IMG/VR virus record: IMGVR_UViG_3300014205_000186
Location: 1-64,000 of that record
Direction: 5' to 3' (one strand)
From: a virus
Taxonomy: Duplodnaviria; Heunggongvirae; Uroviricota; Caudoviricetes
DNA length: 64,000 nucleotides
Both the position numbers and the translations under genes were made by a program. The notes beneath the pieces were generated by a model. It had not been told where the DNA came from. It saw only the letters and a list, made by a program, of their open reading frames with translations, and did not search any database. Within the stretch, counting starts at the first letter, position 1. Every line of letters begins with the position of its first letter. Below are positions 24,661-56,731 of this stretch, one piece after another.

Positions 24661-26112
24661 AAAAAACTTAAAAAATCAGAACTACCAGATAACCATTCAT
24701 TTAATGACTTTAAGTCTTTTGGTCCACCTGCTATAAGAGACGGAGAATTTACAGGAACTAAAGTAGCAGATTTTGGATGTTTCGATAACCAAGGCCGCGA
24801 TAGTAATAAATATTATCACGCAGCTATTTGTCAGTCTACTATAAATAATAAATGGTTTGTGTATGTCCAATTTGGTCGTACTGGAAATTCTAAATATGAT
24901 TTTCAATTTTTTGATTGTGATTCTGAACAAGACGCTCAAAAAGCGTATGAGAAACAATGTCATTCTAAAAACGACAAAAGGGGTGAGTGGTATCAGCATC
25001 CACAATTAGGTAAAATCTTAAGAGCTAAAGCTGGAAAAGATTGTTACTTAACTAGGTCTTTTGCTAGTAGAATATCAGCTTTACCAGATGTAGCTAGAAT
25101 ATCTACTAAGAAAATGGTTAAATCTTCGCAATTTGATCCACAAACAGAAACTTTACTTAGAGATTTACAAACCGGAACAGTATCTTATACAAAAAACAAA
25201 TTTTCTTCAGGTATAATTCCTGATTTAGATTCTATTAATCAAGCTAGAACAATTCTTTCTTTAGCAGCTAAAACTAAAAAAGATGACGAACTTACAGAAT
25301 TAACAAAGATTCTTTATAGTAAAATCCCTAAATCTACTTATATAGGTGAAAAAGTAGAATTATCTTCTGAAAATATTAAATCTTGGTATGATGACCTAGA
25401 CGCTTTTGAATCAGCTTTCTCTTCGTTAGAAGACGGATTTGAAAACGTATCTATTAAATACTTATTAAAATATATTGACAAATCAAACCAGTTGTGGTAT
25501 AATATAGAAAGATTAGTGCAGTCTTCAACAAGAGATAGACACGCATATATTCCTGGAAAAATCAAAATTGAACATATTTGGGAGATTACTAATGTTCCTA
25601 AATCGTTTTTAGATGAACAGGAAAGAATTGCTAAAGAGTTTAAAGGAATTGGTTTCCCGTTAATTTTTCAGCCAGAAAGAACAGAATTAGAGAAAAGGTC
25701 GAATTGTCAGCTACTAATACACGGTTCTCGTAGTTGCAATATTGGAGGTATTATTTCTACTGGTTTTAGACTTCCTAAAGATTTAAGCGGAGTAGCTATT
25801 AATGGGGCAAATTTAGGACCAGGAGCGTATCATGCTTCAGATTATAAAAAGTCTGCTGGTTATTGTTCTATTAAAAATGGTTATTGGTCTAGTGGTTCTG
25901 GATCTATTTCTAATAGAAAAGCTTTTATATTTTTAAATGATGTTATTCTTGGTAATCCACACGTTGTAAGTAGACCGCAGGGATTTAATAAACCGCCAGT
26001 AGGCTATCATAGTGTTATAGCAGATACTAAAGGAAGCTTTCAAAATGAAGAATTTGTTGTTTTTTCAGTAGAGCGTTTTTATCCTAGGTTTTTAATAGAA
26101 TTCGATCTTTAG
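24658..26112 (+). CDS. PARP-like ADP-ribosyltransferase (WGR domain + PARP catalytic domain)
   Basis: WGR-like KWFVYVQFGRTGNSKYDFQFFDCDSEQDAQKAYEKQ; catalytic H-Y-E elements LLIHGSRS, GPGAYHASD, NEEFVVFSVERFYPRFLIEF. Confidence 0.7.
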   Translation: MKKLKKSELPDNHSFNDFKSFGPPAIRDGEFTGTKVADFGCFDNQGRDSNKYYHAAICQSTINNKWFVYVQFGRTGNSKYDFQFFDCDSEQDAQKAYEKQCHSKNDKRGEWYQHPQLGKILRAKAGKDCYLTRSFASRISALPDVARISTKKMVKSSQFDPQTETLLRDLQTGTVSYTKNKFSSGIIPDLDSINQARTILSLAAKTKKDDELTELTKILYSKIPKSTYIGEKVELSSENIKSWYDDLDAFESAFSSLEDGFENVSIKYLLKYIDKSNQLWYNIERLVQSSTRDRHAYIPGKIKIEHIWEITNVPKSFLDEQERIAKEFKGIGFPLIFQPERTELEKRSNCQLLIHGSRSCNIGGIISTGFRLPKDLSGVAINGANLGPGAYHASDYKKSAGYCSIKNGYWSSGSGSISNRKAFIFLNDVILGNPHVVSRPQGFNKPPVGYHSVIADTKGSFQNEEFVVFSVERFYPRFLIEFDL

Positions 26113-36800: not shown

Positions 36801-37397
36801 GTCGATAAAATATATCGAGAAGCATGGAAAAGTGGGTGTAAAGGGATTACAGTATATAGAGACGGTTGTAGAACCGGGGTCTTAATTAAAAAAGAAGAAA
36901 AACTTGCTTTAACTAATGCTACAAAAAGACCAAAATCATTATCTTGTGATATTTATAACATTTCGGTAACTAATAATAAATATACTGTTGTTGTTGGTTT
37001 ACTTAACGGAAATCCTTACGAAGTATTTTGTGTAGCTAATTTTATTGATAAACATAAACATGGAGAACTTGTTAAGGCTGGTAAAGGGAAATATGTTATT
37101 AAGACAACAGACGGAGAGTTAGAATTATCAGATTATTTAGAAGATGATACTCAAAATGCTCTATTAAGAATGGTTTCTACAAGTTTAAGACATGGTGCTA
37201 GTATTAAGTTTGTGATAGAACAGTTACAGAAAACTAAAGGTGATCTAACTAGTTTTACTAAGTGTGTTGCTAGAGCGCTTAAAAAGTATATTCAAGATGG
37301 TGATGGTTCTAGTGAGAAGTGCGAATGTGGAAATCAGCTTATCTATCAAGAAGGCTGTTTAACTTGTAAAAGTTGTGGCTATAGCAAATGTAATTAA
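33861..37397 (+). CDS. nrdJ: class II (adenosylcobalamin-type, NrdJ-like) ribonucleotide reductase interrupted by an intein
   Basis: Extein motif TNP|CGEITL split by a 352-aa insertion; C-terminal Zn ribbon CECGN...CLTCKSCGY; RNR-like conserved blocks. Confidence 0.8.
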   Translation: MYTYEEALNNSIKYFNGNELSAKVFLDKYALRDSNNKILEDTPDKMHRRLAKEFARIEKNKFEKPLNEEEIYTLFKNFSHIIPQGSPCFAIGNNYQIASASNCFVLESPEDSYGGICKTDEELVQISKRRGGVGIDLSKLRPKGSATNNSSRSSTGIKSWMTRYSNSIREVGQSGRRGALMLTVSVHHPDILDFITAKNNGIDITGANISVRLTDEFLKAVENNKEYELRFPVDSKNVVKTISANEIWNLIIDNAWSRAEPGILFWDNILKESIPDCYEEYKTISTNPSLRKGTLILTSEGPRRIETLENSEFQVYNLNHSYSKAVCKLSGKNQELYEVELSSCFKYYATKEHRWATNNGEKTTLELLPGDKIPILKKDKVFNGNLGTREDGFLIGWFLGDGWLTVRKDNNKNQYGFIISEKDKNSKIGDIILSKLRQIGFNGEWIERSRENAIWYEINTQNSKLEDYFNLFYNPCKNKGISKELLEKSSEEFIKGLVDGYLSSDGSIDEKRQKITFVSKNKKLLEDFSEIFGFYGIRSSIRSSESKSSFPNGKNYNKKYKRNDLYISDSDSIKHFQKLFNLSLDYKEEKLRKMLVRKSNNINYVKVKNVNKTDLKEDVWDITVNDNNNCFSLSHCITHNCGEITLSANDSCRLLVINLMNFVRYPFDSNAYFDFMEFYQSAQIAQRLMDDIVDLELEKIDTIIQKIKKDPEDILLKRTELNLWQNIERACEFGRRTGLGITALGDTIAACGIKYGSDESIEFTEKVYKTLKFGSYRSSVDMSKELGSFPAWNWENEKNNPFLLRIKNEFLYLAQEDLFEVPFPYDSLLNGEDLYNDIAKYGRRNIANLTTAPVGSLSILASYLISLKRLFNTTSGIEPLYSWKPFTKRKKGNPGDNDFRTDFIDQSGDHWMDFDVFHSGITAFLNKNPGSTVEDSPYYGGSAEEIVWTQRVKLQAAAQKHVDHSISSTVNLPENVSKEEVDKIYREAWKSGCKGITVYRDGCRTGVLIKKEEKLALTNATKRPKSLSCDIYNISVTNNKYTVVVGLLNGNPYEVFCVANFIDKHKHGELVKAGKGKYVIKTTDGELELSDYLEDDTQNALLRMVSTSLRHGASIKFVIEQLQKTKGDLTSFTKCVARALKKYIQDGDGSSEKCECGNQLIYQEGCLTCKSCGYSKCN
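34725..35780 (+). mobile_element. LAGLIDADG-type intein inside the RNR gene (352 aa)
   Basis: Begins with Ser after TNP, ends ...SHCITHN followed by Cys+1; two LAGLIDADG motifs GWFLGDGWL and LVDGYLSSDGS. Confidence 0.75.
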
Positions 37398-43447: not shown

Positions 43448-43940
43448 TGATAAAATTAATCTTTTAAGAGAATTACTATCTGATGACGATGTTAGAGAAA
43501 CGTTAAAAAAGATTTTATTAGAAGACCGTCCTAAAAAAGCGGTTAAAAAGAAAACTGTAACAAGCCCAAAGACTAAAGTAAAAGCAGTAGTTAAAAAGAC
43601 TACTACTAGAAAACCAAGAGTTAAGAAGCAGGAAGAACAAGAAAATTTTAAAACTAACAAGGTTGATAAATACTCAAAAGATTATGGAAGAAGTCACTTT
43701 GTTGATAATTTAACAGAAGCTCTTGAAGAAGAAGTTGAAGGTAAAAAAATAAATTTAATAGCAGAAAGTAAGAAGTTATCTAAGATAGCTAAAAAGAAAC
43801 CAAAGCAGATTAGACCTAAAAAGACTTTAAGTAAATTAAAATGTACTCAGTGTAATAAACACTTTTTTGGTGTAGGTGGATATTTGTGTGATAATTGTTT
43901 GAAAGGTAAAAACCCAGAGGATAAATTTAATGCTGAGTGA
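43440..43940 (+). CDS. basic Lys-rich protein with C-terminal zinc ribbon (probable DNA-binding)
   Basis: KKAVKKKTVTSPKTKVKAVVKKTTTRKPRVKK; CTQCNKHF...CDNC. Confidence 0.45.
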   Translation: MDNDKINLLRELLSDDDVRETLKKILLEDRPKKAVKKKTVTSPKTKVKAVVKKTTTRKPRVKKQEEQENFKTNKVDKYSKDYGRSHFVDNLTEALEEEVEGKKINLIAESKKLSKIAKKKPKQIRPKKTLSKLKCTQCNKHFFGVGGYLCDNCLKGKNPEDKFNAE

Positions 43941-46326
43941 TAAAGGTTGTGAAAGAGCTGTTTTATCTGGAATTTGTCAATATGGAGCAGAAGGATTTTT
44001 TGAAGTAAATGATATTTTGGATTCTTCTGTCTTTACAGATATTTCTAATCAGATTATTTTTTCTTGTTTAGAATATTTATTTGCCGCAGATATTAAGAAA
44101 GTAGATATTCCAGGTATCTTTTCTGCTGCGAATTCTTTAAAGTTCGAAAAACAAATTTGTGAGTCTAAGCAAAACCAAGAGTTTATTAGGTCGCTTTTTA
44201 ACTTCCCTATAGAGCTATCTAACTTGCGTTCTTACGCGATCAAAATAGTAAACCTATCCATAGCTAGAAACGCCCAAGGGAAGCTACAGAAGGCTTACAG
44301 AGAGCTTGAAGGGGTCACAGGAGACGAAGATACAGATAAGATAATAGAAATAACAGAATCTCCTTATTCAGAATTAATGAGAGAGCTTGTTAGGACAGAA
44401 GATGGCGGAGATATTGGTGAAGATATTGAAGAATATGTTAAAAATAAATTTGATAATCCAGTTAAAAATGTAGGTATACCTTCTCCTTTTCCTATATTTA
44501 ATAGTGTTATTGGTGATGGATTAAGAACAGGTGTACATTTAGTCGCGGCAAGATTGAAAGCTCTTAGATATGGTTCTAAAGTTTATACTAAAACTGGACC
44601 TATTAATATAGAAGATTGTAAAATTGGCCAAGAAATAGCTACTCCAACGGGTTTTGCTAAAATTGATGGGGTTCAAGATTTTCAAAACAAAGATATTTAT
44701 AGAGTTTATTTTAAAGATGGTGATTATGTAGATTGTTGTGAGGATCATATCTGGAGCGTAACTAAAGCTCATGATAGAAAAAAAAGAGAAGTATTAAAAA
44801 CAACAAAAGAATTAATAAATTACGGTATTTATAAAAATGGAAAAAAAAATAATAGATACTACTGGAATATTAAAATGCCAGAACCAGTATTATTTGAAGA
44901 TAAAAGTGTTCCAATAGACCCATATATACTAGGCTGTTTAATTGGTGATGGTTCTTTTAGAAATTCTATAACTTTGAGCGGTAATGATAAAGAAATTTTT
45001 GATTATTTTTATGAAAATCTTAAAGAATATAAAATAAAGGTTGAAAAATCTAATTGTGGATGTATTAGAATAAATAGTTTTCAAAATAAAATTAGAGAAG
45101 TTGGTCTTTATAAAGTAAAAGCTAGGTATAAATTTATACCAAAACAATATATTTATAATAATATAGAAACTAGATTAGAGATTCTTAGAGGATTGATGGA
45201 CACAGATGGTACTTGTGTGGTAAATCCAAGATCTAAAAATTCTAGATCTATATTTGGTACAACTTCTATTCAATTAGCAAAAGATATTAAAGAAATAGTT
45301 TGTTCTTTAGGAGGATTATGTAGTATTAAAAGGGTTAACCAAATATATAAAGGAAAACCATATTTATCATACAGTTGTGAAATAAGACTGGAAAACTTTA
45401 ATGTTTTTAAATTAAAAAGAAAAGCAGATAGAGTAACTGGTAGATTTTATAAAGTTAAAAGAATTATTTCCAAAATAGAAAAAGTTGGAGTTGATAATAC
45501 TAGGTGCATTAAAGTAAACTGTCCAAACGAGCTATTTTTAACAGATAATTATATAGTTACTCATAATACTGGAAAAAGCACCTTTGCTAAAGAAGTTGGG
45601 ATTCATGTTGCTAAAAATCTTAAAATACCAGTATTATTCATTGATAGCGAAATGAGTACAGAAGAACAAAAAGATAGAATCTTAGCAAGTATTGCAGAAT
45701 TAGATATTAGAAAAGTTGAAAAGGGCGGCTTATCACAAGCAGAAAAGGATAAATTAATCTATTCGGCTAAAGAACTGAAAAATATACCGTTTAAACATGA
45801 AAAAATAGCCGGGAAACCATTCAAAGAAGTTTTATCATTAATAAGACGCTGGATTAATCACAAGGTTGGTTATGGAGACGACGGTAAAGCTAATCCACAT
45901 CTTGTTATATATGATTATTTTAAACTAATGGATGTGGGAGATTTAAAAAATGCACAAGAATACCAATTAATGGGCTTTCAAATAGCTGCTTTACATGATT
46001 TTTGTACCGAAAATAATACGCCAGTTCTTTCGTTTGTACAAATTAATAGAGATGGAATTAATAAAGAATCAACAGATGTTATTGCTCAATCTGACAGATT
46101 AGGCTGGAATGCTATATCTTTAAGTATTTGGAAAAGAAAAACCCCAGAAGAAATTGGTCAAAATCCCAAAGCTGGTACGCACAAATTAGTTCCTTTAGAA
46201 GGTCGTTTTATGTCTAAACTTGATCCTGGAGATTATATTAATTATTATTTTGATGAAGCCAAATCTAAAATTACAGAGTTAAAAACAAGGTTTCAAAGTG
46301 AATCAGCAGATTTCGGACAAAATTGA
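43930..46326 (+). CDS. dnaB: DnaB-like replicative helicase interrupted by an intein in the P-loop
   Basis: Exteins ...GVHLVAARLK + TGKSTFAKEVG reconstitute a DnaB Walker A (AARPSMGKTTF-like); downstream DnaB-like IDSEMSTEEQ. Confidence 0.75.
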   Translation: MLSDKGCERAVLSGICQYGAEGFFEVNDILDSSVFTDISNQIIFSCLEYLFAADIKKVDIPGIFSAANSLKFEKQICESKQNQEFIRSLFNFPIELSNLRSYAIKIVNLSIARNAQGKLQKAYRELEGVTGDEDTDKIIEITESPYSELMRELVRTEDGGDIGEDIEEYVKNKFDNPVKNVGIPSPFPIFNSVIGDGLRTGVHLVAARLKALRYGSKVYTKTGPINIEDCKIGQEIATPTGFAKIDGVQDFQNKDIYRVYFKDGDYVDCCEDHIWSVTKAHDRKKREVLKTTKELINYGIYKNGKKNNRYYWNIKMPEPVLFEDKSVPIDPYILGCLIGDGSFRNSITLSGNDKEIFDYFYENLKEYKIKVEKSNCGCIRINSFQNKIREVGLYKVKARYKFIPKQYIYNNIETRLEILRGLMDTDGTCVVNPRSKNSRSIFGTTSIQLAKDIKEIVCSLGGLCSIKRVNQIYKGKPYLSYSCEIRLENFNVFKLKRKADRVTGRFYKVKRIISKIEKVGVDNTRCIKVNCPNELFLTDNYIVTHNTGKSTFAKEVGIHVAKNLKIPVLFIDSEMSTEEQKDRILASIAELDIRKVEKGGLSQAEKDKLIYSAKELKNIPFKHEKIAGKPFKEVLSLIRRWINHKVGYGDDGKANPHLVIYDYFKLMDVGDLKNAQEYQLMGFQIAALHDFCTENNTPVLSFVQINRDGINKESTDVIAQSDRLGWNAISLSIWKRKTPEEIGQNPKAGTHKLVPLEGRFMSKLDPGDYINYYFDEAKSKITELKTRFQSESADFGQN
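44560..45567 (+). mobile_element. LAGLIDADG-type intein in the helicase (N-terminal boundary ambiguous: Ala at 44560 or Cys at 44617)
   Basis: Hint block A-like ALRYGSKVYTKTGPINIED / CKIGQEIATPTGFAKIDGV; block B DHIWSV; LAGLIDADG LGCLIGDGSF and LRGLMDTDGT; ends IVTHN then Thr+1. Confidence 0.65.
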
Positions 46327-48390: not shown

Positions 48391-49425
48391 ATGAAATTTA
48401 TCTCTCTATACAAAAACATATTAACAAAACAATTTTTAGAACATGAATATATAGTTAAAAGAAGATCTATTATAAATATAGCAAATGAAATAAATTGTAG
48501 TACAAATACTATATATGCGTATTTAAGAAAATATGGTATAGAAGTAGAAAAAAGAAACGGCGAAATAAAACCTGGTCAAAAATTTAACAAACTAACAGCT
48601 ATAAAAGTTGTATCAAAAAGTAAAAATGGTACGTTTATATGGGAATGTTTATGTGATTGTGGTAATATTTCTAAAGTTAGAACATGTCAATTAAAAAATA
48701 ATACAACAAAAAGTTGCGGATGTATTTGCGGAAAGTCGCACGCAAATTGGTCTGGATACAAAGATATAAGCGGTAATTTCTTTTCTGGAGTTAAATCATC
48801 TGCTAAAACAAGAAATATTAATTTTAATATAACAATAGAAGATATTTGGAATTTATATCTAAATCAAAATAAAAAATGTTACTTATCAAATATTGAAATT
48901 CATTTTAATCAATATAAAGAAACTGCGTCGGTAGATAGAATTAATAGTTTATTAGATTATAATATTAATAATATAGCAATATGTCACAAAGATATTAATA
49001 AAATCAAAGCTTCTTTTTTAATAGAGGATTTTATAAAATATTGTAGATTAATAAGTTGTTTTAATAGTAAATTTAAGGCTATAGAAATAGATTTTAATTT
49101 ATCTAAGAGTTATTTTAAAGATTTGAAATATAACGCTAAAAGAAGAGGTAAAGATTTTTATATTAGTATTGAGGATATTGGAATAATATTTAAAAAGCAA
49201 GGTGGAGTATGTGCTTTAACAGGATTAGAATTAACATTTCCAACTAATTCAAAAGACTATAGAAATAGAATTCATAATTTTTCAGTAGATAGAATAGATA
49301 ATAAATTAGGATATTATATTAATAATATTCAAATTGTTCATAAGCTAATAAACCAATCAAGGAAAGATCTAGAAATAGATTATTATAAAGAATTATGTCA
49401 GAAAATCAGTCTATCAAACAATTAA
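48391..49425 (+). CDS. protein with N-terminal Cys cluster and two tandem degenerate HNH_3-like domains
   Basis: WECLCDCGNISKVRTCQLKNNTTKSCGC; repeats ...CYLSNIEIHF...SVDRINSLLDYNINNIAICHKDINKIK and ...CALTGLELTF...SVDRIDNKLGYYINNIQIVHKLINQSRK. Confidence 0.5.
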   Translation: MKFISLYKNILTKQFLEHEYIVKRRSIINIANEINCSTNTIYAYLRKYGIEVEKRNGEIKPGQKFNKLTAIKVVSKSKNGTFIWECLCDCGNISKVRTCQLKNNTTKSCGCICGKSHANWSGYKDISGNFFSGVKSSAKTRNINFNITIEDIWNLYLNQNKKCYLSNIEIHFNQYKETASVDRINSLLDYNINNIAICHKDINKIKASFLIEDFIKYCRLISCFNSKFKAIEIDFNLSKSYFKDLKYNAKRRGKDFYISIEDIGIIFKKQGGVCALTGLELTFPTNSKDYRNRIHNFSVDRIDNKLGYYINNIQIVHKLINQSRKDLEIDYYKELCQKISLSNN

Positions 49426-51212
49426 ATTGGGTTCCTTTCCATATACATTCGACATACTCGATTTTAGATGGTATTATTAAGCCAGATAAACTTGCTAAAA
49501 GATGTAAAGAACTTGGATATAAACACTGTATGATAACAGATCATGGCAGCGTATCTGGTTTTATTAAATTTGCTACCGCAATGAAAAAAGAAGGTATTAT
49601 TCCGATTTTAGGAACAGAATTCTACTTATCTTATAAAGATTCTACTATTCAAGATGCCGATAATAGAAAACTTTTTCATATGGTTGTTTGTGCTAAAAAT
49701 AAAGCTTCTTGGACCAATCTTGTAAAAGCTATATCAGAAAGTAATAGAAAAGAGAATTTTTATTATAAGCCAAGACTGGATACTGAAAAATTAGCTAATA
49801 TTATTGGTGATTCTTGTTATATTTTCTCTGGTCATCCAGGATCATATTTGTGGGATTTTAAAACAGAAAACGAAATTATTACCGGAATAGAGTATTTAAA
49901 GGGTTTGTTTGGTAATAATCTTTATTTAGAACTACAAAGGTTTATTAGAGATTCAGAAGTAGATTCTCATATTAACCTTCTTAAATCTGCTGGAGAAAAG
50001 ACTAATACCCCGGCGATAGCTTGTATAGATGCTCATTATACTAATCAAGAAGATGTTAATTTACACAGAATAGTTTTATGTTCTAATCTACATAAGACTC
50101 TTCCTCAAATCAATAGAATGAAATCTGGAGATAAACCAATGGGAGTTTTCTTTGAAAAAGATTACTTCTATGTTCCTTCTTTAGATGAATTAAAGGATTT
50201 TGGCCATTCTGATGAAGAACTAGACATGTCTTCAATTACCAGTAATATTGAAAGCTTTGATTTACAAGAACAGCCAAGATTACCAAAATTCGTTGATGAC
50301 GAAGAAGAATATTTTAGAGAACGCTGTAGAGAAGGGTTTAAGGCTAAAAGAACTGTTTTATGGGATTCTAAGTATGTTGATAGAGTTAAATATGAACTAG
50401 ATGTTTTAACAGAAGCTAAATTATCTGGATATTTTCTTATTGTTTCTGATTATATTAACTGGGCAAAAAATAAGGGAATTCTTGTTGGTCCAGCTAGAGG
50501 TTCTAGTTTAGGTAGCTTAGTTTGCTATCTTTTAAATATAACCTCGATAGATCCTCTACCATATAATTTAGATTTTGAAAGATTCTATAATAGCTCAAGA
50601 AATACAAAAGATAACATTTCTCTTCCAGATATAGATACAGATTTTCCAGCTAATCTTAGAGAACAAGTAATTGAGTATATTCGTAATAAATATGGTAAAG
50701 ATAGGGTTTGTCAAATTGCAACATTTGGTACTTTGAAAGGAAAAGCTGCTTTAAAAGAGGTTTTTAGAGTTTGTGAAGTATGTGACTTTGAAACCATGAA
50801 TACAATAACTAAGCCAATGCCTAATGAGGCTGATATTGCAGATGAATTAGAGGAACAGGGAGAAGAATCAATTATTTCATGGTGTTTAAGAAATCAGCCA
50901 AAAATGTTTCAAGATTATTGTTATATCGAAAACGATGAACTAAAAGGTGAATATGCTCAATATTTTGAAATAGCTATTGAACTAGAAGGTATTCATAAAT
51001 CCCAAGGTAAACATGCTGCTGGATTAATCGTATCAAGAGATCCACTAGCAGATATTTCACCATTAATTTATGATAAATCTGGAGAAGCTATTGTCGCTTT
51101 AGATAAAAAAGATGCTGAAAAAATAGGTCTTGTTAAGTTTGACATATTAGGACTTTCTTGTTTGGATAAGCTAATGAGTGTTAATAATTTATTAAGAACC
51201 GGAAAAATATGA
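49395..51212 (+). CDS. dnaE: DNA polymerase III alpha (DnaE) fragment 1: PHP domain to start of palm
   Basis: NWVPFHIHSTYSILDG...MITDHGSVSGF (PHP); ends ...GLVKFDILGLSCLDKL where E. coli DnaE has FDFLGLKTLT. Confidence 0.8.
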   Translation: MSENQSIKQLNWVPFHIHSTYSILDGIIKPDKLAKRCKELGYKHCMITDHGSVSGFIKFATAMKKEGIIPILGTEFYLSYKDSTIQDADNRKLFHMVVCAKNKASWTNLVKAISESNRKENFYYKPRLDTEKLANIIGDSCYIFSGHPGSYLWDFKTENEIITGIEYLKGLFGNNLYLELQRFIRDSEVDSHINLLKSAGEKTNTPAIACIDAHYTNQEDVNLHRIVLCSNLHKTLPQINRMKSGDKPMGVFFEKDYFYVPSLDELKDFGHSDEELDMSSITSNIESFDLQEQPRLPKFVDDEEEYFRERCREGFKAKRTVLWDSKYVDRVKYELDVLTEAKLSGYFLIVSDYINWAKNKGILVGPARGSSLGSLVCYLLNITSIDPLPYNLDFERFYNSSRNTKDNISLPDIDTDFPANLREQVIEYIRNKYGKDRVCQIATFGTLKGKAALKEVFRVCEVCDFETMNTITKPMPNEADIADELEEQGEESIISWCLRNQPKMFQDYCYIENDELKGEYAQYFEIAIELEGIHKSQGKHAAGLIVSRDPLADISPLIYDKSGEAIVALDKKDAEKIGLVKFDILGLSCLDKLMSVNNLLRTGKI

Positions 51213-51862
51213 GAAAAGCTACCCAGTCTCAAATAGAAACATTTCATGAGTTTAATATTTTATTAGACACTAGAGAAATATTTCTTCATGGTCAAGATAC
51301 AGAAGATTCTGGAACAGATCATAGAATGGCTGCTGGTTTTATTAAAAATCTTAGAATACTTGAAAGATCAAATGAACCAATAATAATTCATCAACACAAT
51401 ATTGGAGGCTCTTGGGATTCTGGAATGGCTATATATGACGCGATTAAATATAGTCCTTGTAGATTTATTTTTATTTGTTATGGCATCGCGGCATCTATGG
51501 GTTCTATTATTCCTCAATCTGTATTAGATAAAGGGTATAGGGTTAGTATGCCAAATTGCGATTGGCTGATCCATGAAGGAGATTTATATTTAGATGGTAT
51601 TTATACACAGGTTAAATCAAATCTAGATTATATGAATATTAATAAACACGCTATGTACGAGATATATACCGATTGTTGTTGTGGAGGTATATTTTTCGAA
51701 ACATATTCTAGATCTAAAGTTAAAGCTTTTTTAAAGAGAAAAATAAGAGAAAAAACCGATTGGTGCTTTGGATCTAAAGAGGCATTAGAATATGGTTTTG
51801 TTGATGGAATTTTGGGTGAAGAAGAATTTAAAAATATTAAAACAATTTTAGAGAGCTTATAA
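51209..51862 (+). CDS. ClpP-like serine protease
   Basis: GGSWDSGMAIYDAIKYSPC...YGIAASMGSII...CDWLIHEG parallels the ClpP Ser-His motif segments. Confidence 0.6.
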   Translation: MRKATQSQIETFHEFNILLDTREIFLHGQDTEDSGTDHRMAAGFIKNLRILERSNEPIIIHQHNIGGSWDSGMAIYDAIKYSPCRFIFICYGIAASMGSIIPQSVLDKGYRVSMPNCDWLIHEGDLYLDGIYTQVKSNLDYMNINKHAMYEIYTDCCCGGIFFETYSRSKVKAFLKRKIREKTDWCFGSKEALEYGFVDGILGEEEFKNIKTILESL

Positions 51863-51961
51863 TGGAAAGTAAAATACATGGATATATTTATTTAATTACT
51901 AAAATATTTAAAACTTTAGAAGATGCAATAAAATTTAAAACAAATATAGACAAGGAAAACA

Positions 51962-52624
51962 ATGCCAATACATAATTCAACTTATTTAATGTATGATTTT
52001 GAAACGGGTTCAAGAAATCCGTATACTACACAAGCTATTCAAATAGCAGCTATAGCAATAGAACCAAGAAGTCTAGAAGTTGTTCCAGGAAGTGAATTTG
52101 AATCTTTAATTAAACCAGAGTTTGACGAAATTAAATGTAAAGAGCTTGAAATTGACATGTTAGAGGATCAGGCTTTAGCCGTTAATGGTAAAACTAGAGA
52201 AGAATTAGCAGAAGCACCGCAATTAAAAGTTGTTTGGAAATCTTTTACGCAATATTGTATGAACTATAATCCATCTGGAAAGAAATGGACAGCACCTTGT
52301 TTGGTTGGTTTTAATAATATAGGTTTTGATAATGTAATTCTTAATAGAATGGCTAAACAATATGGTCCCTGGGATTCCGAACGAGAACAATGTAATCTAT
52401 TTAACCCGATTATTAAGCTAGATTTAATGCAGATGCTATTACCGTGGTTTGAATCAGAATATAATTTAAAAACTATCAGTATGGATAATATGAGAGATTT
52501 TCTAGGTATGTCTAAAGAGGGTGGCCACGATGCTTTACAAGACGTTCGTGATCAAGCTGAAATATTCATAAAAACTATGAAATTAACAAGAAAATGTTCT
52601 AAGGTAGTAACGTGGAAAAAATAA
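51962..52624 (+). CDS. DnaQ-like 3'-5' exonuclease (DEDDh)
   Basis: Exo I MYDFETGS, Exo II GFNNIGFDNVIL, Exo III GGHDALQDVRD. Confidence 0.7.
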   Translation: MPIHNSTYLMYDFETGSRNPYTTQAIQIAAIAIEPRSLEVVPGSEFESLIKPEFDEIKCKELEIDMLEDQALAVNGKTREELAEAPQLKVVWKSFTQYCMNYNPSGKKWTAPCLVGFNNIGFDNVILNRMAKQYGPWDSEREQCNLFNPIIKLDLMQMLLPWFESEYNLKTISMDNMRDFLGMSKEGGHDALQDVRDQAEIFIKTMKLTRKCSKVVTWKK

Positions 52625-53166
52625 ATTTAACAAATAAAAAATTTGGAAGAATAACGGCTTTATATCCCACTGAAGAAAGAAAATATAGAGCTATTGTATG
52701 GCAATGTAAATGTGATTGCGGAAATTATATTAATGTAACTATACAATCATTAAAAAGCGGTAATACAAAAAGCTGTGGATGTTCTAGATATAAATATAAT
52801 TATAAAGAAGAAAAATTATTAAAGTATTTTACATCTTTGGATTTTTCTGCGAAAAGAAGAAAAATAGAATTTAAAATTACTTTAGATGACATATATAAAC
52901 AATGGTATGACCAAAACGGATTATGTAATTATACTAATATAAAATTAAAACTACCATATGAAAAAGATGAATTTACCGGATCAATTGATAGAATTAATAG
53001 TTCTATTGGATATACTAAAAATAATATACAATGGATTTTAAAAGAAATTAATTTTATGAAAGGTAATATGTCTGAAAGTAAATTTAAAACTATTTGTAGA
53101 CTAGTATCAAATGGTGAAAATAATGTTTTTAATTTTTGGGAGTCTTACGAAAACGAGTTGAGATAA
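52612..53166 (+). CDS. protein with N-terminal Cys cluster and degenerate HNH_3-like domain
   Basis: WQCKCDCGNYINVTIQSLKSGNTKSCGCS; ...GLCNYTNIKL...SIDRINSSIGYTKNNIQWILKEINFMK. Confidence 0.5.
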   Translation: MEKINLTNKKFGRITALYPTEERKYRAIVWQCKCDCGNYINVTIQSLKSGNTKSCGCSRYKYNYKEEKLLKYFTSLDFSAKRRKIEFKITLDDIYKQWYDQNGLCNYTNIKLKLPYEKDEFTGSIDRINSSIGYTKNNIQWILKEINFMKGNMSESKFKTICRLVSNGENNVFNFWESYENELR

Positions 53167-53384
53167 TGTTTTTTAAAAAGCAAAAAGAAAAAGAGAGCAA
53201 GTATACTGAAGGTTTTAATGCTGCGTATTATTCACATAGTAATAGTAAAAACCCGTACAACTATCTTAAAGAAGAAAAAGAGCATAGAGAATGGTTTACT
53301 GGATATACGGACGGTATTAATGCTACAAATATTATGATGAATAAAAGTATTTTTAATTATAGCAACCCAAAATGTAGTGGATAA
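53136..53384 (+). CDS. hypothetical protein
   Basis: 82-aa ORF. Confidence 0.35.
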   Translation: MGVLRKRVEIMFFKKQKEKESKYTEGFNAAYYSHSNSKNPYNYLKEEKEHREWFTGYTDGINATNIMMNKSIFNYSNPKCSG

Positions 53385-53386
53385 AA

Positions 53387-53734
53387 ATGATTATTAGAAC
53401 TGATAGTATAAAAGAAATTAGTAATATTATATGTGATAATATTCTAATAAAAGATAAAACAGTAATTATTATTGATAGTAAACCAATTATAGATCTTATT
53501 ACAAAAGATGTTTTATTACATATAGAAAAATATTATTTAGATATCAATATAAGAATATCAGACCTAGATTTTAAACAAATAGGTGAATTCATTTTAATGG
53601 GTATTATTGACGGTTCTCGTATTAGAGGTTTAAGGGCTAAAAATATTATCATATATAATTATGAAATTTTGAAAGAAAAATACAAAGATCATATTGAAAA
53701 TATTATTAATGGTTATAATGCTATTAGTGAGTAG
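53387..53734 (+). CDS. hypothetical protein
   Basis: 115-aa ORF. Confidence 0.4.
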   Translation: MIIRTDSIKEISNIICDNILIKDKTVIIIDSKPIIDLITKDVLLHIEKYYLDINIRISDLDFKQIGEFILMGIIDGSRIRGLRAKNIIIYNYEILKEKYKDHIENIINGYNAISE

Positions 53735-53760
53735 AAATAAATTATTAAATAGGATGAAAA

Positions 53761-54654
53761 ATGTATTATAAGTTTGCTTGCGGCTGTAAATTTAAACAGC
53801 TTGATAGTGTTGTAAAAGATTGCGATGGATTACCATCTATTGAGCTTGATTATTATAATTTACCAGAATGCCCAAACGTTTGGCCAATGTTAGCTACTGG
53901 TAAAACTAAGGGGGTATTTCAATTAGAAAAATCTCTCGGTAAACACTGGTGCAAAGAATTATACCCAGAGAATATTCATCACTTAGCTGCTTTGGCAAGT
54001 ATACTACGTCCTGGGATATTAGAAAGTATTGTAGATGATAAGAGTTTAACACAGCATTATTGCGATAATAAGAACCATAGACAAGAAGTTATTCCTATGC
54101 ATCCAGCTTTAGAAAAGATTCTTGAAGATACTCAACAAATTATTATCTTTCAAGAACAAATTCTATTAATAGCTAAAGAGATAGCTGGTTTTACTGGTGT
54201 TGAAGCCGATACTTTAAGAAGAGGTATTGGTCATAAAGATGCCAAAGTTGTTTTTGAAATGGAAAAGAAATTTATTGATGGTTCTGTTAGGGTTGGAAAA
54301 ATAACGGAACAAGACGCCAAAAATATATTTGATATTATTAAAAAATCTGCCAGGTACAGTTTTAATGCGTGCTTAAGTCCAGAAACAGTTGTAGAAACTA
54401 AAAGCGGATATAAAACTATTGAAGAACTTAACATTGGAGAATTTATAAAAGCCCCAAACAAAAATATTGAAGAATTTATTGAAGTTACCAATAAAATAGA
54501 GCAAGGTACACAAGAAGTTTATGAGATTACATTAGAATCTGGTAAAACAATAGAATGTACAATAGACCATAAATTCTTATGTGAAGATGGTTCTATTATT
54601 CCACTTTGGCAAATTATAGAAGAAAATAAAAAAATTATTTGTGAAAACGAATAA
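53761..54654 (+). CDS. dnaE: DnaE fragment 2 (palm/fingers segment) fused to the N-terminal half of a split intein
   Basis: ...GKTKGVFQLEKS...ALASILRPG... (DnaE) ends ...SARYSFNA then intein N CLSPETVVETKSGYKTIEEL...TIDHKFL, stop after about 94 intein residues. Confidence 0.8.
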   Translation: MYYKFACGCKFKQLDSVVKDCDGLPSIELDYYNLPECPNVWPMLATGKTKGVFQLEKSLGKHWCKELYPENIHHLAALASILRPGILESIVDDKSLTQHYCDNKNHRQEVIPMHPALEKILEDTQQIIIFQEQILLIAKEIAGFTGVEADTLRRGIGHKDAKVVFEMEKKFIDGSVRVGKITEQDAKNIFDIIKKSARYSFNACLSPETVVETKSGYKTIEELNIGEFIKAPNKNIEEFIEVTNKIEQGTQEVYEITLESGKTIECTIDHKFLCEDGSIIPLWQIIEENKKIICENE

Positions 54655-55699
54655 AAAGAGTATTTATTAGTATGAGACTTACTAATAAAGGGCATTCTAT
54701 GGATTACGATATTAAAAAAGAAGAATGGCATAATTGTAAACTGTGCAACAAAAAAATAGAAGATTTAGCAAAAATATTTGGCGGATCAAATGTATATTAT
54801 ACAAAAGTTTTTATAAAACATTTAAAAGAAGATCATAATATCTCAAAAGAAGAATATTTTGAAAAATTTACCAAAAGACCTATTTGTAAATGTAATATAT
54901 GTAATAAAAACGTAGATATAAAAACTCGCGGATCAAAATTTTCTTGGAAAGAATATAAATGCGGAAGATTTAAAGGTATAATGGAATGGTCAGAAAAGGC
55001 TAAAGAAACTAGGAAAGGTAAAAATAATCCAATGTATGGGGCGACCCCTTGGAATAAAGGATTAGATAATTCTGACCAAAGAATAAAAGCTATTGCTGAT
55101 AAAAGAAGGGGAATAAAAACAAGTAAAGAAACTAAGAAAAAACAAAAAGAATCAGCTTTAAAAAGAATAGTTCATGGACATACTGGTAAAAAACATTCGG
55201 AGGAAACTAAGAACTTCTTAAGAAAAAATACTTTAAGGCTTATTAAAGAGGGAAAACTTTGCGGAACAACTAAAACAAAGCCACATTTAGAGTTTGAAAA
55301 AATATTAATTAAAAACCATATTAAATATGAAGAAGAAAAAATTGTAAGTTATTGGTCTTTTGATTTTTATTTAGTTGATTATAATGTTTATATTGAGGTT
55401 GATGGAGACTATTGGCACTCTAATCCAAAAACATATCCAAATGGACCAAAAACAAAATCTCAAAAAATAAATTATGCTAGAGACTTATCGAAAAATAAAT
55501 ATTGCATTAAAAATAATTTAACCCTATATAGATATTGGGAATGCGATATTTTAAACAGTATTGATAAAATTGAAAAGGAATTATTGTGCAAGCTGAAAAA
55601 ATTATAAATATTAAACATATTGGTAAAAAAAGAACTGTTGATATTACTGTAAATAGCGACTCTCATATATTTTATGGTAATGGTATAGCAACCTCAAAT
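54370..55699 (+). mobile_element. naturally split intein with intervening free-standing endonuclease gene (fractured-gene arrangement)
   Basis: Int-N 54370-54651 (Cys1, block B T..H); endonuclease ORF 54672-55607; Int-C 55586-55699 (...RTVDITVNSDSHIFYGNGIATSN then Ser+1 of the SHAYAYG extein). Confidence 0.7.
54672..55607 (+). CDS. free-standing homing-type endonuclease: NUMOD-repeat DNA-binding region + Vsr/DUF559-like PD-(D/E)xK nuclease domain
   Basis: NUMOD-like repeats GKNNPMYGATPWNKGL, GIKTSKETKKK, HGHTGKKHSEETK; C-terminus FDFYLVDYNVYIEVDGDYWHSNPKTY...LTLYRYWECD (Vsr/DUF559-like). Confidence 0.65.
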   Translation: MRLTNKGHSMDYDIKKEEWHNCKLCNKKIEDLAKIFGGSNVYYTKVFIKHLKEDHNISKEEYFEKFTKRPICKCNICNKNVDIKTRGSKFSWKEYKCGRFKGIMEWSEKAKETRKGKNNPMYGATPWNKGLDNSDQRIKAIADKRRGIKTSKETKKKQKESALKRIVHGHTGKKHSEETKNFLRKNTLRLIKEGKLCGTTKTKPHLEFEKILIKNHIKYEEEKIVSYWSFDFYLVDYNVYIEVDGDYWHSNPKTYPNGPKTKSQKINYARDLSKNKYCIKNNLTLYRYWECDILNSIDKIEKELLCKLKKL

Positions 55700-56731
55700 A
55701 GTCATGCTTATGCTTATGGTACTATTGGTTATTGGACAGCATTTGCTAAAAACCATTTTCCATTACATTTTTACGCGGCTTATATAGCTCATGCTAAAGA
55801 TAAACAAGATCCAAAAGAAGAAATTAAAGAGCTTGTAGATGATGCTAGAAACTTTGGGGTAGAAATTGTTCCTCCGCATGTTAGTTCTCTAAAAAATAAT
55901 AGAAGTGGCGATGTTACAATTGAAGATCAAAAAATACTATTTGGTATCATTGATATTAAGGGCATAGGACAAAAACAAATAGAAAAACTATATGATTCTA
56001 TTCAAGAAAAAGAAAAGGTTTTAAATAAGGATATTAAGAAATGGTCTTGGAATGATTTTCTTTTTAACGCTAATGTGAGTTCTACAGTTGTAAATAACTT
56101 AATATTAGTTGGAGCAACTCCAGGTGGTGTACCTCGCAAACAAAAAGCATATGAATACTCTATCTTCCAAAATTTAACAGAAAGAGAATTTAACTGGTTT
56201 GCCGAACACTATCAAGAATATGAAAACTTTGCTGATTCTTTGGAAAAATATTCTACTATAGAAAGAAAAGAGGGCGGACCTTCAAATGTTAAAAGAAAAG
56301 CTTTTATAGAAGATTCTGCAAAAAGCCTTAAAAATTCTCCATATTCAACAAAAGATCATCCAGACTGGATTGTAGCTAATGAAAGAGAATATATTGGAAT
56401 TCCTATAACCTATTCTTCTACAGAAAACAAAATGGTTAATACAGGAATGACCTGTGCTGACTTTTTAGGTGGTAAAAGAGGAAAAATAAACATTTTAGTA
56501 GAAATATCTTCATTTAAAGAGTATACTATTAAAAAGGGACAGAATGCTGGCTTGTTAATGTGTGTTCTTGAATTAAAAGATTCAACAGAATCAATTACCG
56601 GAATTATGTTTCATGAAGACTATAAGGAAAATCAAGAGTATTTATTTGATGGTAATGTTGTTTTAGTTGCCGGATTTAGAAGTAAAAAAGATCCTAATTG
56701 TTTAATTATTAATAAGGTAGAACAAGTATGA
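55586..56731 (+). CDS. dnaE: C-terminal half of the split intein fused to DnaE fragment 3
   Basis: After ...ATSN the extein SHAYAYGTIGYWTAFAKNHFPLHFYAAYIAH matches DnaE [22 protein letters not shown]... Confidence 0.8.
   Translation: MQAEKIINIKHIGKKRTVDITVNSDSHIFYGNGIATSNSHAYAYGTIGYWTAFAKNHFPLHFYAAYIAHAKDKQDPKEEIKELVDDARNFGVEIVPPHVSSLKNNRSGDVTIEDQKILFGIIDIKGIGQKQIEKLYDSIQEKEKVLNKDIKKWSWNDFLFNANVSSTVVNNLILVGATPGGVPRKQKAYEYSIFQNLTEREFNWFAEHYQEYENFADSLEKYSTIERKEGGPSNVKRKAFIEDSAKSLKNSPYSTKDHPDWIVANEREYIGIPITYSSTENKMVNTGMTCADFLGGKRGKINILVEISSFKEYTIKKGQNAGLLMCVLELKDSTESITGIMFHEDYKENQEYLFDGNVVLVAGFRSKKDPNCLIINKVEQV

What the first reader, a model, noticed from the sequence alone, without database searches (positions are those of the whole stretch)
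53761..56731. Pol III alpha (DnaE) interrupted by a naturally split intein whose halves flank a free-standing NUMOD/Vsr-like endonuclease gene
ORF 53761-54654 ends with DnaE sequence ...SARYSFNA immediately followed by an intein N-terminal half (CLSPETVVET..., block B TIDHKFL) and a stop after about 94 intein residues. A separate ORF (54672-55607) then encodes NUMOD-like repeats plus a Vsr/DUF559-like nuclease domain (YIEVDGDYWHS). ORF 55586-56731 begins with about 37 aa of intein C-terminal blocks F/G (RTVDITVNSDSHIFYGNGIATSN) and continues straight into the DnaE extein SHAYAYG.... This is the fractured-gene architecture: trans-splicing intein halves separated by their homing endonuclease gene. 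The insertion point (FNA|SHA within the FNKSHS motif) is offset from the classical cyanobacterial DnaE split-intein site (before CFNKSHS). The penultimate intein residue is Ser rather than His.
Basis: partly seen in the sequence, partly recalled or inferred. Interest (0 to 1): 0.85.

Follow-up and report, generated by a model that had tools for sequence, protein, structure and literature searches.

The report
Phage DnaE fractured by split intein
An uncultured phage's replicative DNA polymerase gene is interrupted by a 1,330-bp selfish cassette (two intein halves flanking a homing-endonuclease gene), a real and well-preserved example of the "fractured gene" layout described for phage DnaE in 2009, so it is a new member of a known kind.

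Summary
ORF 53761-54654 is DnaE fingers (203 aa) plus a 94-aa intein N-half. ORF 54672/54699-55607 is a free-standing EDxHD (Vsr-like) homing endonuclease. ORF 55586-56731 is a 38-aa intein C-half plus the rest of DnaE. A relative 88% identical in DNA lacks exactly 54370-55699, so the cassette boundaries are exact. The same protein occurs on independently assembled contigs, which excludes an artefact.

This is the "fractured gene" arrangement of Dassa et al. 2009. That paper already lists three DnaE loci, one with a Vsr-like endonuclease. The FN(K/A)|SH site is a populated intein allele here: 68 split and many contiguous representatives. The penultimate Ser is family-wide (48 of 49) and is shared with Npu DnaE.

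The PHP+palm part (49395-51212) lies 2.5 kb upstream. It is separated by an intein-less split that carries the proofreading exonuclease gene, and this split is conserved in all 80+ related loci.

Relatives show every stage at this site: empty, contiguous, fractured, endonuclease relics. They also carry homologous cassettes at neighbouring sites.

Verdict: new member of a known kind, moderate-low interest.

The parts
49395..51212 (+). dnaE-N: PHP plus palm/thumb part of Pol III alpha (605 aa). It is a separate polypeptide with no intein.
   Evidence: Pfam PHP 4e-31 and DNA_pol3_alpha 3e-74. Its C-terminus aligns to Taq alpha up to about residue 635, which is where dnaE-C picks up (about 634). 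The same break is present in all related loci.
51209..51862 (+). ClpP-like protease gene lying inside the intein-less dnaE split
   Evidence: Pfam CLP_protease 1.8e-24. Conserved in the close relatives L002 and L089.
51962..52624 (+). DnaQ-like 3'-5' exonuclease gene, the constant occupant of the gap between dnaE-N and dnaE-C
   Evidence: Pfam RNase_T 2.5e-11. PHROG 'DNA polymerase exonuclease subunit' 5e-17. It lies between the dnaE halves in every fetched locus that holds both halves except L019, where it was not detected.
52612..53166 (+). Free-standing HNH-type endonuclease gene (orf184), a variable insert in the gap
   Evidence: PHROG endonuclease/HNH hits, 6e-22 to 3e-15. Homologues sit at different positions in other loci. 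The stretch 52594-53745 is absent from L089.
53761..54369 (+). dnaE-C N-extein: fingers domain, 203 aa, ending ...RYSFNA
   Evidence: Pfam DNA_pol3_finger 3e-34. Contiguous with 55700 onward in the intein-less relatives P0233 and L089.
54370..54654 (+). Intein N-half (94 aa, Cys1, block B T64xxH67, net charge -11) plus stop codon
54370..55699 (+). The whole mobile cassette (IntN, endonuclease gene, IntC), 1,330 bp
   Evidence: BLAST HSPs against L089 end at 54369 and resume at 55700, while the L089 coordinates run 6609 to 6610 without a gap.
54663..54689 (+). 10-bp A/U stem with a 7-nt loop, between the IntN stop and the endonuclease SD/start. It buries ATG 54672 and the first three bases of the SD AAAGGG.
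   Evidence: MFE -9.9 kcal/mol, z = -1.6, so not significant on its own. Analogous small hairpins occur at the same place in L008, L012 and L022, as reported for fractured loci in PMC2677866.
54699..55607 (+). Free-standing EDxHD (Vsr-like) homing endonuclease, 302 aa (311 aa if translated from ATG 54672). N-terminal Cys/His-rich and NUMOD3-like region, C-terminal nuclease domain.
   Evidence: dN/dS is 0.13-0.18 between orthologue pairs.
55586..55699 (+). Intein C-half (38 aa, GTG start, blocks F/G, ...ATSN, net charge +2). Its first 22 nt overlap the 3' end of the endonuclease gene.
55700..56731 (+). dnaE-C C-extein (343 aa): Ser+1-His, rest of the fingers, HhH and OB-fold
   Evidence: Pfam HHH_6 and OB hits. 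83% identical to L002. Aligns to Taq and E. coli alpha.

Best explanation
The window comes from a large uncultured phage (contig of at least 179 kb, about 28% GC). Its replicative polymerase gene dnaE is encoded in three pieces.

**The fixed, intein-less split.** dnaE-N (PHP+palm) and dnaE-C are separate genes. The proofreading exonuclease gene lies between them. This layout is fixed in the whole phage family, and the two products presumably associate non-covalently (inferred).

**The fractured dnaE-C.** dnaE-C is additionally broken at FNA|SHA, in the conserved FNKSH fingers motif. The break is a 1,330-bp selfish cassette: a class-1 mini-intein whose coding sequence has itself been invaded by a free-standing EDxHD homing-endonuclease gene. 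The invasion point is the canonical endonuclease-insertion position between blocks B and F.

**Expression (inferred).**
- ORF2 gives fingers-IntN.
- The endonuclease is translated at a low level from an SD next to a small hairpin.
- ORF3 (IntC plus the rest of DnaE) initiates at a GTG, using an SD carried inside the 3' end of the endonuclease gene.

**Splicing (inferred from conserved residues and homology).** The acidic IntN (-11) and basic IntC (+2) associate and fold into a HINT domain. They then trans-splice in four steps: acyl shift at Cys1, transesterification to Ser+1, cyclisation of Asn38, and O-to-N shift. This releases the intein and yields a 546-aa DnaE-C with the FNA-SHA motif restored.

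**Spread (inferred).** In mixed infections the endonuclease cuts cassette-less alleles, such as that of L089. Repair then copies the cassette in.

**What is shown and what is not.** Shown: the anatomy, exact boundaries, empty site, homology, purifying selection and patchy distribution. Inferred: splicing activity, endonuclease activity and target, and assembly of the polymerase pieces.
For: - Anatomy and domains.
- Intein homology: Npu DnaE 5e-13 and gp41-1 2.5e-12. All top fold hits of a low-confidence model are inteins.
- Catalytic positions conserved: His of TxxH is invariant and Thr is at least 90% in 61 sequences. Residue 1 is Cys in 55 and Ser in 11 of 68. The junction reads ...SN|SH in 48 of 49.
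- Exact excision and empty site: L089 is 88% nt identical and lacks 54370-55699. Intein-less P0233 is 546 aa = 203 + 343.
- Endonuclease: the profile hits I-Bth0305I at 1.8e-6. The fold match has TM 0.78-0.79. D222, E233, D235, D237, H240 and D262 are invariant in 46 sequences. There are more than 215 full-length relatives.
- Selection: IntN dN/dS is 0.04-0.14 and the endonuclease 0.13-0.18.
- Mobility: between L002 and L088, cassette dS is 0.27-0.35 against about 1.0 for the flanking extein. IntN of P0004 and P0013 is 76% identical while their exteins are 53%. Relatives with 91-94% identical exteins carry different intein content.
- Shared features in relatives: in nine related fractured loci the SD for the IntC ORF sits in the endonuclease 3' end, with a 19-37 nt overlap.
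- Independent assemblies.
- Published precedent: PMC2677866.
Against: - No experiment shows that this intein splices or that this endonuclease cuts.
- The hairpin is weak (z = -1.6).
- Promoter and terminator scans are at chance level in this AT-rich DNA. The T4-type late-promoter motif reported for some fractured loci is not upstream of this endonuclease.
- The fused-intein structure model is of low confidence (pLDDT 60).
- The endonuclease target is unknown. It could be the intein-less dnaE or an endonuclease-less contiguous intein.
- How dnaE-N and dnaE-C associate is untested.
Confidence: 0.85

Rival explanations
1. The cassette is a fixed, no longer mobile passenger. The intein still splices, but the endonuclease is inactive or has been put to another use, and the arrangement is inherited only vertically.
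For: No activity data exist. The A-site endonucleases are only 44-68% identical to each other, so the lineage is old. L019 and L015 show that the endonuclease can decay to relics.
Against: The endonuclease is under purifying selection (dN/dS 0.13-0.18), with invariant catalytic-type residues in 46 sequences. Cassette dS is three-fold lower than that of the flanking host gene between L002 and L088. Presence, absence and site all differ between phages whose exteins are 91-94% identical.
Confidence: 0.12
2. The intein halves no longer splice. They act only as a non-covalent dimerisation module that holds the two DnaE-C fragments together, as interaction domains do in the endonuclease-split NrdA of phage Aeh1.
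For: This phage family already tolerates a non-covalent split of DnaE at the palm/fingers boundary. Assembly of a fragmented enzyme without splicing has a precedent (PMC3045599, listed).
Against: Every residue needed for chemistry is kept across the family: Cys/Ser1, TxxH, terminal Asn and Ser+1. The junction ...SN|SH is found in 48 of 49. A pure docking module would not need the nucleophiles or Asn. The break sits inside the highly conserved FNKSH motif, where 132 extra residues would be hard to accommodate (inference).
Confidence: 0.05
3. The arrangement is an assembly or sequencing artefact, or a dead pseudogene in a defective genome.
For: The data are metagenomic and no isolate exists.
Against: Identical ORFs occur on three independently assembled contigs from different sources. 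The same layout is found in at least nine other loci from different samples. All three ORFs are intact, with SDs and strong purifying selection.
Confidence: 0.01

Closest known systems
Fractured DnaE loci DnaE-1, -2 and -3 from Global Ocean Sampling reads (Dassa et al. 2009, PMC2677866)
   Same: The host gene is the same. [quoted passage not shown] DnaE-2 carries a Vsr-like endonuclease whose nuclease domain is at about 196-315, matching the size and layout here. They share a hairpin upstream of the endonuclease, an overlap of the endonuclease 3' end with the downstream ORF, and sites different from the cyanobacterial one. DnaE-1 has an extra in-frame intein upstream, as in relative P0002/L088.
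   Different: The published DnaE loci were incomplete read assemblies and were not among the five full loci. I could not obtain their sequences (no supplement held), so identity of the insertion point with any of them is unproven. Here the locus is complete and sits in a contig of at least 179 kb. An empty-site relative and the upstream intein-less split are also visible.
gp41-1 split intein locus (phage DnaB-like helicase; PDB 6qaz and 6riz)
   Same: The same fractured layout. IntN is 88 aa and IntC about 37 aa, against 94 and 38 here. Ser is at +1. Sequence match is 2.5e-12 and 33% identity over 123 residues.
   Different: The host protein differs. gp41-1 ends ...THN with the usual penultimate His. 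Its published charge polarity is the opposite (IntN positive, PMC2677866).
Cyanobacterial DnaE split intein (Ssp, Npu; PolIII-alpha insertion point 'a')
   Same: The host protein and fingers hot spot are the same. So are the split position within the intein, the penultimate Ser/Ala, and the acidic IntN with basic IntC. Sequence match is 5e-13 and 35% identity.
   Different: Its site is 4 residues upstream (Y|CFNK against FNK|SH). It has Cys+1, not Ser+1. Its halves are encoded at distant loci with no endonuclease. It is no closer in sequence to this intein than gp41-1 is, so no special ancestry is indicated.
I-Bth0305I, prototype of the EDxHD homing endonucleases (PMC3239194; PDB 3r3p)
   Same: A Vsr-like catalytic domain at the C-terminus and a DNA-binding region at the N-terminus. 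It is the best sequence and fold match.
   Different: I-Bth0305I lies in a group I intron of recA and has NUMOD2/HTH repeats. The protein here lies inside an intein gene and has Cys/His-rich motifs and NUMOD3-like repeats. Identity is 28% in the catalytic domain only.
Endonuclease-split, intein-less phage genes (Aeh1 nrdA with mobE, PMC3045599; SbcD-like locus in PMC2677866)
   Same: These resemble the first break (dnaE-N / dnaE-C): an essential replication enzyme encoded as two polypeptides without an intein, with other genes in the gap, including endonuclease genes.
   Different: Here the constant gene in the gap is the DnaQ-like exonuclease, not an endonuclease. The split is fixed across a whole phage family rather than being a sporadic invasion.

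Membership tests
Intein (HINT superfamily, class 1) | Nucleophile (Cys/Ser) as first intein residue, directly after conserved host sequence | tested here: met
   Cys1 at 54370 follows ...RYSFNA. Residue 1 is Cys in 55 and Ser in 11 of 68 relatives.
Intein (HINT superfamily, class 1) | Block B Thr-x-x-His | tested here: met
   T64-I-D-H67. His is invariant and Thr at least 90% in a 61-sequence alignment.
Intein (HINT superfamily, class 1) | Blocks F/G ending in Asn, followed by Ser/Thr/Cys as first C-extein residue | tested here: met
   ...VDITV..SHIFYGNGIATSN|SH. The junction reads SN|SH in 48 of 49 representatives.
Intein (HINT superfamily, class 1) | Significant homology or fold match to solved inteins | tested here: met
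   Sequence: Npu DnaE 5e-13, gp41-1 2.5e-12. Fold: all top 50 Foldseek hits are inteins or Hedgehog domains, but the model is poor (pLDDT 60, TM about 0.43).
Intein (HINT superfamily, class 1) | Removal of the element restores an uninterrupted, conserved host protein | tested here: met
   L089 and P0233 have a contiguous 546-aa DnaE-C that reads ...SFNASHAYAYG across the site.
Intein (HINT superfamily, class 1) | Protein (trans-)splicing activity | not testable with these tools
   Needs co-expression of ORF2 and ORF3.
Fractured gene (Dassa et al. 2009) | Host gene broken into two adjacent same-strand ORFs, each carrying one half of a split intein | tested here: met
Fractured gene (Dassa et al. 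2009) | Free-standing endonuclease ORF between the intein halves, not in frame with them | tested here: met
   54699-55607 has its own start and stop. The IntN and IntC ORFs are in different frames.
Fractured gene (Dassa et al. 2009) | Accessory features reported for most loci: hairpin in the endonuclease 5' region; endonuclease 3' end overlapping the start of the downstream ORF | tested here: met
   The overlap is 22 nt here and 19-37 nt in eight related loci. Small hairpins are present, but that of the window is not significant on its own. The TATAAATA motif is not upstream.
EDxHD (Vsr-like) homing endonucleases | Vsr-type nuclease fold in the C-terminal domain | tested here: met
   The profile hits 3r3p at 1.8e-6. 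Foldseek: 3r3p with TM(target) 0.78-0.79, then 3hrl and 1cw0.
EDxHD (Vsr-like) homing endonucleases | Conserved acidic and His catalytic residues forming the composite EDxHD motif | tested here: met
   D222, E233, D235, D237, H240 and D262 are invariant in 46 sequences, within FDFYL...IEVDGDYWH...RD. One-to-one mapping on the published residues was done by alignment to 3r3p only.
EDxHD (Vsr-like) homing endonucleases | N-terminal NUMOD-type DNA-binding region | tested here: inconclusive
   NUMOD3 matches only at E = 0.052 over 12 residues in the window protein. Precomputed Pfam NUMOD3 hits exist on several orthologues. Invariant Cys residues suggest additional zinc-binding motifs.
EDxHD (Vsr-like) homing endonucleases | Site-specific cleavage of the cassette-less allele | not testable with these tools
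   The empty-site sequence is available from L089 for an in-vitro test.
Cyanobacterial DnaE split-intein allele (insertion point 'a') | Insertion between ...AEY and CFNK | tested here: not met
   Here the insertion is FNA|SHA, 4 residues downstream. Cyanobacterial hits read FAEY|CLSY. Mapped on Taq alpha, the sites are K815|S816 and Y811|G812.
Cyanobacterial DnaE split-intein allele (insertion point 'a') | Halves encoded at separate genomic loci without an endonuclease | tested here: not met
   The halves are 931 bp apart, with an endonuclease gene between them.

The most novel reading that the evidence does not exclude
In this uncultured phage family one intein/endonuclease lineage occupies at least three, and perhaps four, insertion points within about 70 residues of the DnaE fingers:
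- EADxLR|S (third site)
- Y|SFNK (the cyanobacterial site)
- FNK|SH (site A)
- Y.K|SH (site B)

At site A every life-cycle stage is present:
- empty
- contiguous mini-intein
- fractured by an EDxHD or a LAGLIDADG endonuclease
- fractured with only a relic of the endonuclease
- apparently re-fused, with an in-frame endonuclease relic

This would mean that whole split-intein cassettes jump ectopically between nearby sites, and that gene fracturing is reversible. Separately, the family's DnaE is permanently two-piece without any intein, with the proofreading exonuclease gene between the halves. I did not find that layout described in the literature.
Probability: 0.35. Interest if true: 0.5.

Novelty: new member of a known kind. 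Interest (0 to 1): 0.3.

Why it matters
**The finding itself.** It adds a complete, well-bounded DnaE example to a class of loci known since 2009. It is useful as a candidate natural split intein: Cys1/Ser+1, 94 + 38 aa, with opposite-charged halves as in Npu DnaE. It is not conceptually new.

**The family around it.** This has more value. The exact empty site, the many alleles and the endonuclease relics make a natural series for testing two things. One is the Dassa model of how endonuclease invasion creates split inteins. The other is whether the process reverses.

**The intein-less split.** The conserved dnaE-N / exonuclease / dnaE-C layout is a natural experiment on where a C-family polymerase can be cut and still work.

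Tried and rejected
- Megablast of the region against 50,697 phage records found no match. Protein-level searches found only remote DnaE relatives (at most 35-41% identity), so no cultured relative exists.
- The metagenome-contig scan with the DnaE-C alignment confirmed nothing. The genome-contig scan with the intein pattern confirmed nothing either, so no bacterial or prophage copy was found.
- The supplement of Dassa 2009 is not held. I therefore could not match this site to their DnaE-1, -2 or -3.
- A special relationship to the cyanobacterial DnaE split intein was considered and rejected. The similarity to gp41-1 is the same, and the site differs by 4 residues.
- Sigma-70 promoter and terminator scans were at chance level. 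TATAAATA occurs at chance frequency and is not upstream of the endonuclease.
- The single-sequence AF2 model of the fused intein is of low confidence and was used only as weak support.
- A recent hop between sites A and B was considered and is not supported. A-site and B-site endonucleases are only 37-46% identical, so the two site lineages are old.
- A literature search for an intein-less split DnaE in phages returned only split-intein papers.
- Cluster look-up of long DnaE proteins carrying the same intein gave no organism names.


Full report
**1. What is in the sequence**

The window is AT-rich (about 28% GC) and all long ORFs are on the + strand. It contains a phage-type replication module: RNR, DnaB, primase, UvsX-like recombinase and exonucleases.

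- ORF 53761-54654 encodes 203 residues of the Pol III alpha fingers domain (Pfam 3e-34), ending ...SARYSFNA. A 94-residue intein N-half follows, with Cys1 at 54370, block A CLSPETVVET and block B T64-I-D-H67. The stop is at 54652.
- ORF 55586-56731 starts at a GTG, 6 nt downstream of AAAGGA. It encodes a 38-residue intein C-half ending ...HIFYGNGIATSN. Next come Ser-His-Ala-Tyr... and 343 residues of DnaE, covering the rest of the fingers, the HhH and the OB fold.
- Between these two lies a 311-codon ORF, 54672-55607.

**2. Is it an intein?**

The two halves joined in silico match solved inteins over essentially their whole length: Npu DnaE at 5e-13 and gp41-1 at 2.5e-12. A single-sequence AlphaFold model is poor (pLDDT 60), but its 50 best Foldseek hits in the PDB are all inteins or Hedgehog domains.

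The residues needed for splicing are conserved in the family.

- In 61 aligned N-halves the block-B His is invariant and the Thr is at least 90% conserved.
- Residue 1 is Cys in 55 and Ser in 11 of 68.
- In 49 C-half representatives the junction reads ...SN|SH 48 times.

Npu DnaE likewise ends ...IASN.

IntN has net charge -11 and IntC +2. This is the polarity of the cyanobacterial DnaE split inteins.

dN/dS for IntN between relatives is 0.04-0.14.

**3. Exact boundaries and the empty site**

A search with ORF3 found P0233, a 546-aa protein (203 + 343) that is 94% identical and has no intein. Its contig, L089, is 88% identical in DNA over dnaE-C.

The BLAST alignment stops at window 54369 and resumes at 55700, while the L089 coordinates run on without a gap. 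The inserted element is thus 54370-55699, 1,330 bp. Removing it restores ...YSFNA-SHAYAYG..., which aligns with FNKSH of bacterial Pol III alpha.

Counting along the alignment to Taq alpha (2hpi) gives these positions:

| Site | Taq alpha position |
|---|---|
| This site (site A) | K815\|S816 |
| Cyanobacterial split site | Y811\|G812 |

The site here is thus four residues downstream of the cyanobacterial one. Cyanobacterial hits read FAEY|CLSY.

Identical ORFs occur on three independently assembled contigs: ENA 179,427 bp, Logan 19.9 kb and JGI 106,914 bp. Misassembly is excluded.

**4. The middle ORF**

Orthologues from six related site-A loci start at the position of the second ATG, 54699. 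The real protein is therefore probably 302 aa.

- A profile of seven orthologues hits the catalytic domain of I-Bth0305I (3r3p) at 1.8e-6.
- An AlphaFold model built on 46 homologues (pLDDT 89) has 3r3p as best fold match (TM 0.78-0.79). A DUF559-like protein and E. coli Vsr follow.
- D222, E233, D235, D237, H240 and D262 are invariant.
- The N-terminal two thirds carry invariant Cys residues and a weak NUMOD3 signal.

The protein is a member of the EDxHD homing-endonuclease family (PMC3239194). It has more than 215 full-length relatives in metagenomes. dN/dS between orthologue pairs is 0.13-0.18, so it is a maintained gene.

A 10-bp A/U hairpin (54663-54689) lies just before the SD AAAGGG and ATG 54699. 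It is not significant on its own (z = -1.6), but similar hairpins sit at the same place in relatives.

The last 22 nt of the endonuclease gene contain the SD and start of the IntC ORF. This overlap is 19-37 nt in every related locus.

**5. Comparison with what is known**

This is the 'fractured gene' arrangement of Dassa et al. 2009 (PMC2677866). [quoted passage not shown] A hairpin lies upstream of the endonuclease, and its 3' end overlaps the downstream ORF.

[quoted passage not shown] 'DnaE-2' has a Vsr-like endonuclease with the nuclease domain at about 196-315. 'DnaE-1' has an additional in-frame intein upstream. I see the same layout in the close relative P0002/L088.

Novikova et al. (PMC4760082) describe the fingers domain of PolIII-alpha as an intein hot spot, with several sites within 75 residues.

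I cannot say whether this exact site is one of theirs.

**6. How common is this allele?**

- With ORF2 as query, 68 cluster representatives carry a split N-half at the same site (site A, FN[KA]|C/S). Six carry it at a second site 17 residues downstream (site B...Y.K|CLS...SN|SHFP). About 30 have no intein.
- A full HMMER scan with the fused intein gave 1,549 hits. Nearly all of the best 150 are inteins at FNK|...SN|SH in DnaE. They include many contiguous mini-inteins in DnaE-C-sized proteins and in unsplit DnaEs of 900-1,500 aa, all from unnamed metagenomic contigs.
- No copy was found in 185,579 bacterial and archaeal genomes with the intein pattern.

**7.

ORF 49395-51212 encodes the PHP and palm/thumb domains. 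It ends where Taq alpha reaches about residue 635, and dnaE-C begins at about 634. From my own knowledge of the E. coli structure, this is the palm/fingers boundary.

Five genes lie between the two pieces:

- a ClpP-like protease
- a DnaQ-like exonuclease
- an HNH endonuclease
- an RMF-like small ORF
- a 115-aa ORF

No intein residues flank this break.

In all 80+ related loci the order is dnaE-N ... dnaE-C. The exonuclease gene lies between the halves in every locus that holds both, except L019, where it was not detected. The other genes in the gap vary. The split is ancestral to the family, and the two proteins must assemble non-covalently (inference).

**8. Life cycle seen in relatives at site A**

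| State | Loci |
|---|---|
| Empty | L089, L003 and about 60 other loci |
| Contiguous mini-intein | L007, L014, P0036, P0076 |
| Fractured with EDxHD endonuclease | window, L008-L013, L018, L022 |
| Fractured with a LAGLIDADG endonuclease | L016 |
| Fractured with only a 117-nt relic of the endonuclease 3' end | L019 |
| Contiguous intein whose linker reads ...RRIIHGHTGCSHSTE... | L015 |

The L015 linker is an in-frame relic of the central motif of the endonuclease.

The cassette is younger than its host gene in at least one pair. Between L002 and L088, dS is 0.27-0.35 for the cassette and about 1.0 for the extein. Intein and extein identities are discordant: 76% against 53% for P0004 and P0013. 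These are signatures of horizontal spread.

Site-A and site-B N-halves are 60-69% identical and intermixed. Their endonucleases, in contrast, form site-specific groups: A against A 44-68%, A against B 37-46%. The two site lineages are therefore old, not a recent hop.

Homologous inteins also sit at a third site (EADELR|...|SAIGKK, P0290). In P0357 an intein occupies the cyanobacterial site, only four residues from an occupied site A.

**9. Mechanism and confidence**

Shown:
- the anatomy, exact boundaries and empty site
- homology of the intein and the endonuclease
- conservation of catalytic residues
- purifying selection
- patchy, transfer-like distribution

Inferred:
- trans-splicing to a 546-aa DnaE-C
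- low-level endonuclease expression, and homing into empty alleles during co-infection
- translation of ORF3 from signals carried by the endonuclease gene
- non-covalent assembly with dnaE-N and the exonuclease

I put 0.85 on this account. The main residual alternative is that the endonuclease is no longer active (0.12). A non-splicing docking role (0.05) and an artefact (0.01) are unlikely.

**10. Verdict**

This is a correct observation and a correct interpretation of a known kind of element. It is a new, complete member of the fractured-DnaE class, in an uncultured large phage.

Interest is 0.3. A specialist would not be surprised by the locus itself. The surrounding family is a good natural series for studying how split inteins arise and revert: multiple sites, all stages, endonuclease relics and the intein-less three-gene DnaE layout.

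Noticed in passing
window 49395-53760, and all loci L001-L085: dnaE is split without an intein at the palm/fingers boundary. In all 80+ related viral loci the order is dnaE-N ... dnaE-C. A DnaQ-like exonuclease gene lies between the halves in every locus holding both, except L019, where it was not detected. The N-terminus of dnaE-C carries a lineage-specific conserved F.CGC...C..W motif (about 16 extra residues) that might serve assembly. I found no description of this layout in the literature.
   Followed up: partly
L002 8610-9975; L088; L090; L092: A homologous split intein plus EDxHD endonuclease sits 17 codons downstream (site B, ...WTAYSK|CLSEDT...ICTSN|SHFPLHF) in phages whose exteins are 82-91% identical to the window. 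The window has Asn instead of Ser at that +1 position. P0002/L088 and P0023 have a contiguous intein at site A and a split one at site B.
   Followed up: yes
L015 7625-8068; L019 7784-7934: L015 has a contiguous site-A intein with an in-frame relic (RRIIHGHTGCSHSTE) of the central motif of the EDxHD endonuclease, which suggests re-fusion of a once-fractured intein. L019 has split halves with only a 117-nt relic of the endonuclease 3' end (RFWEDDI...).
   Followed up: partly
P0290 and P0357 (metagenomic proteins): The same intein family occurs at a third fingers site (EADELR|...|SAIGKK). In P0357 an intein sits at the cyanobacterial site (SRY|CIVG...ITSN|SFNK), only four residues before an occupied site A.
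   Followed up: partly
window 33861-37397 and 43930-46326: The RNR large subunit (1,178 aa) and the DnaB-like helicase (798 aa) each contain a classical contiguous intein with a LAGLIDADG endonuclease domain (Pfam Intein_splicing and LAGLIDADG_3). This one replication module therefore carries three inteins.
   Followed up: partly
window 48391-49425 and 52612-53166: Two free-standing HNH-type endonuclease genes flank or sit inside the dnaE region (PHROG hits). Both stretches are absent from the close relative L089. Homologues of the 184-aa one occupy different positions in other loci, and in L075 one lies inside dnaE-N.
   Followed up: partly
window 24658-26112: A 484-aa protein with WGR and PARP catalytic domains (Pfam 2e-7 and 8e-19). 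This is an unusual combination for a phage.
   Followed up: no
window 51209-51862: A ClpP-like protease gene lies inside the replication module between the dnaE halves. It is conserved in L002 and L089. The PHROG label is 'head maturation protease'.
   Followed up: no
window 53136-53384: A small ORF with a sub-threshold match to ribosome modulation factor (Pfam RMF 1.3e-4, 22 bits against a cut-off of 27.9). It is conserved (66% identity) just upstream of dnaE-C in L002 and absent from L089.
   Followed up: no
window 16196-19588: Three tRNA genes: Glu-TTC, Tyr-GTA and Asn-GTT.
   Followed up: no
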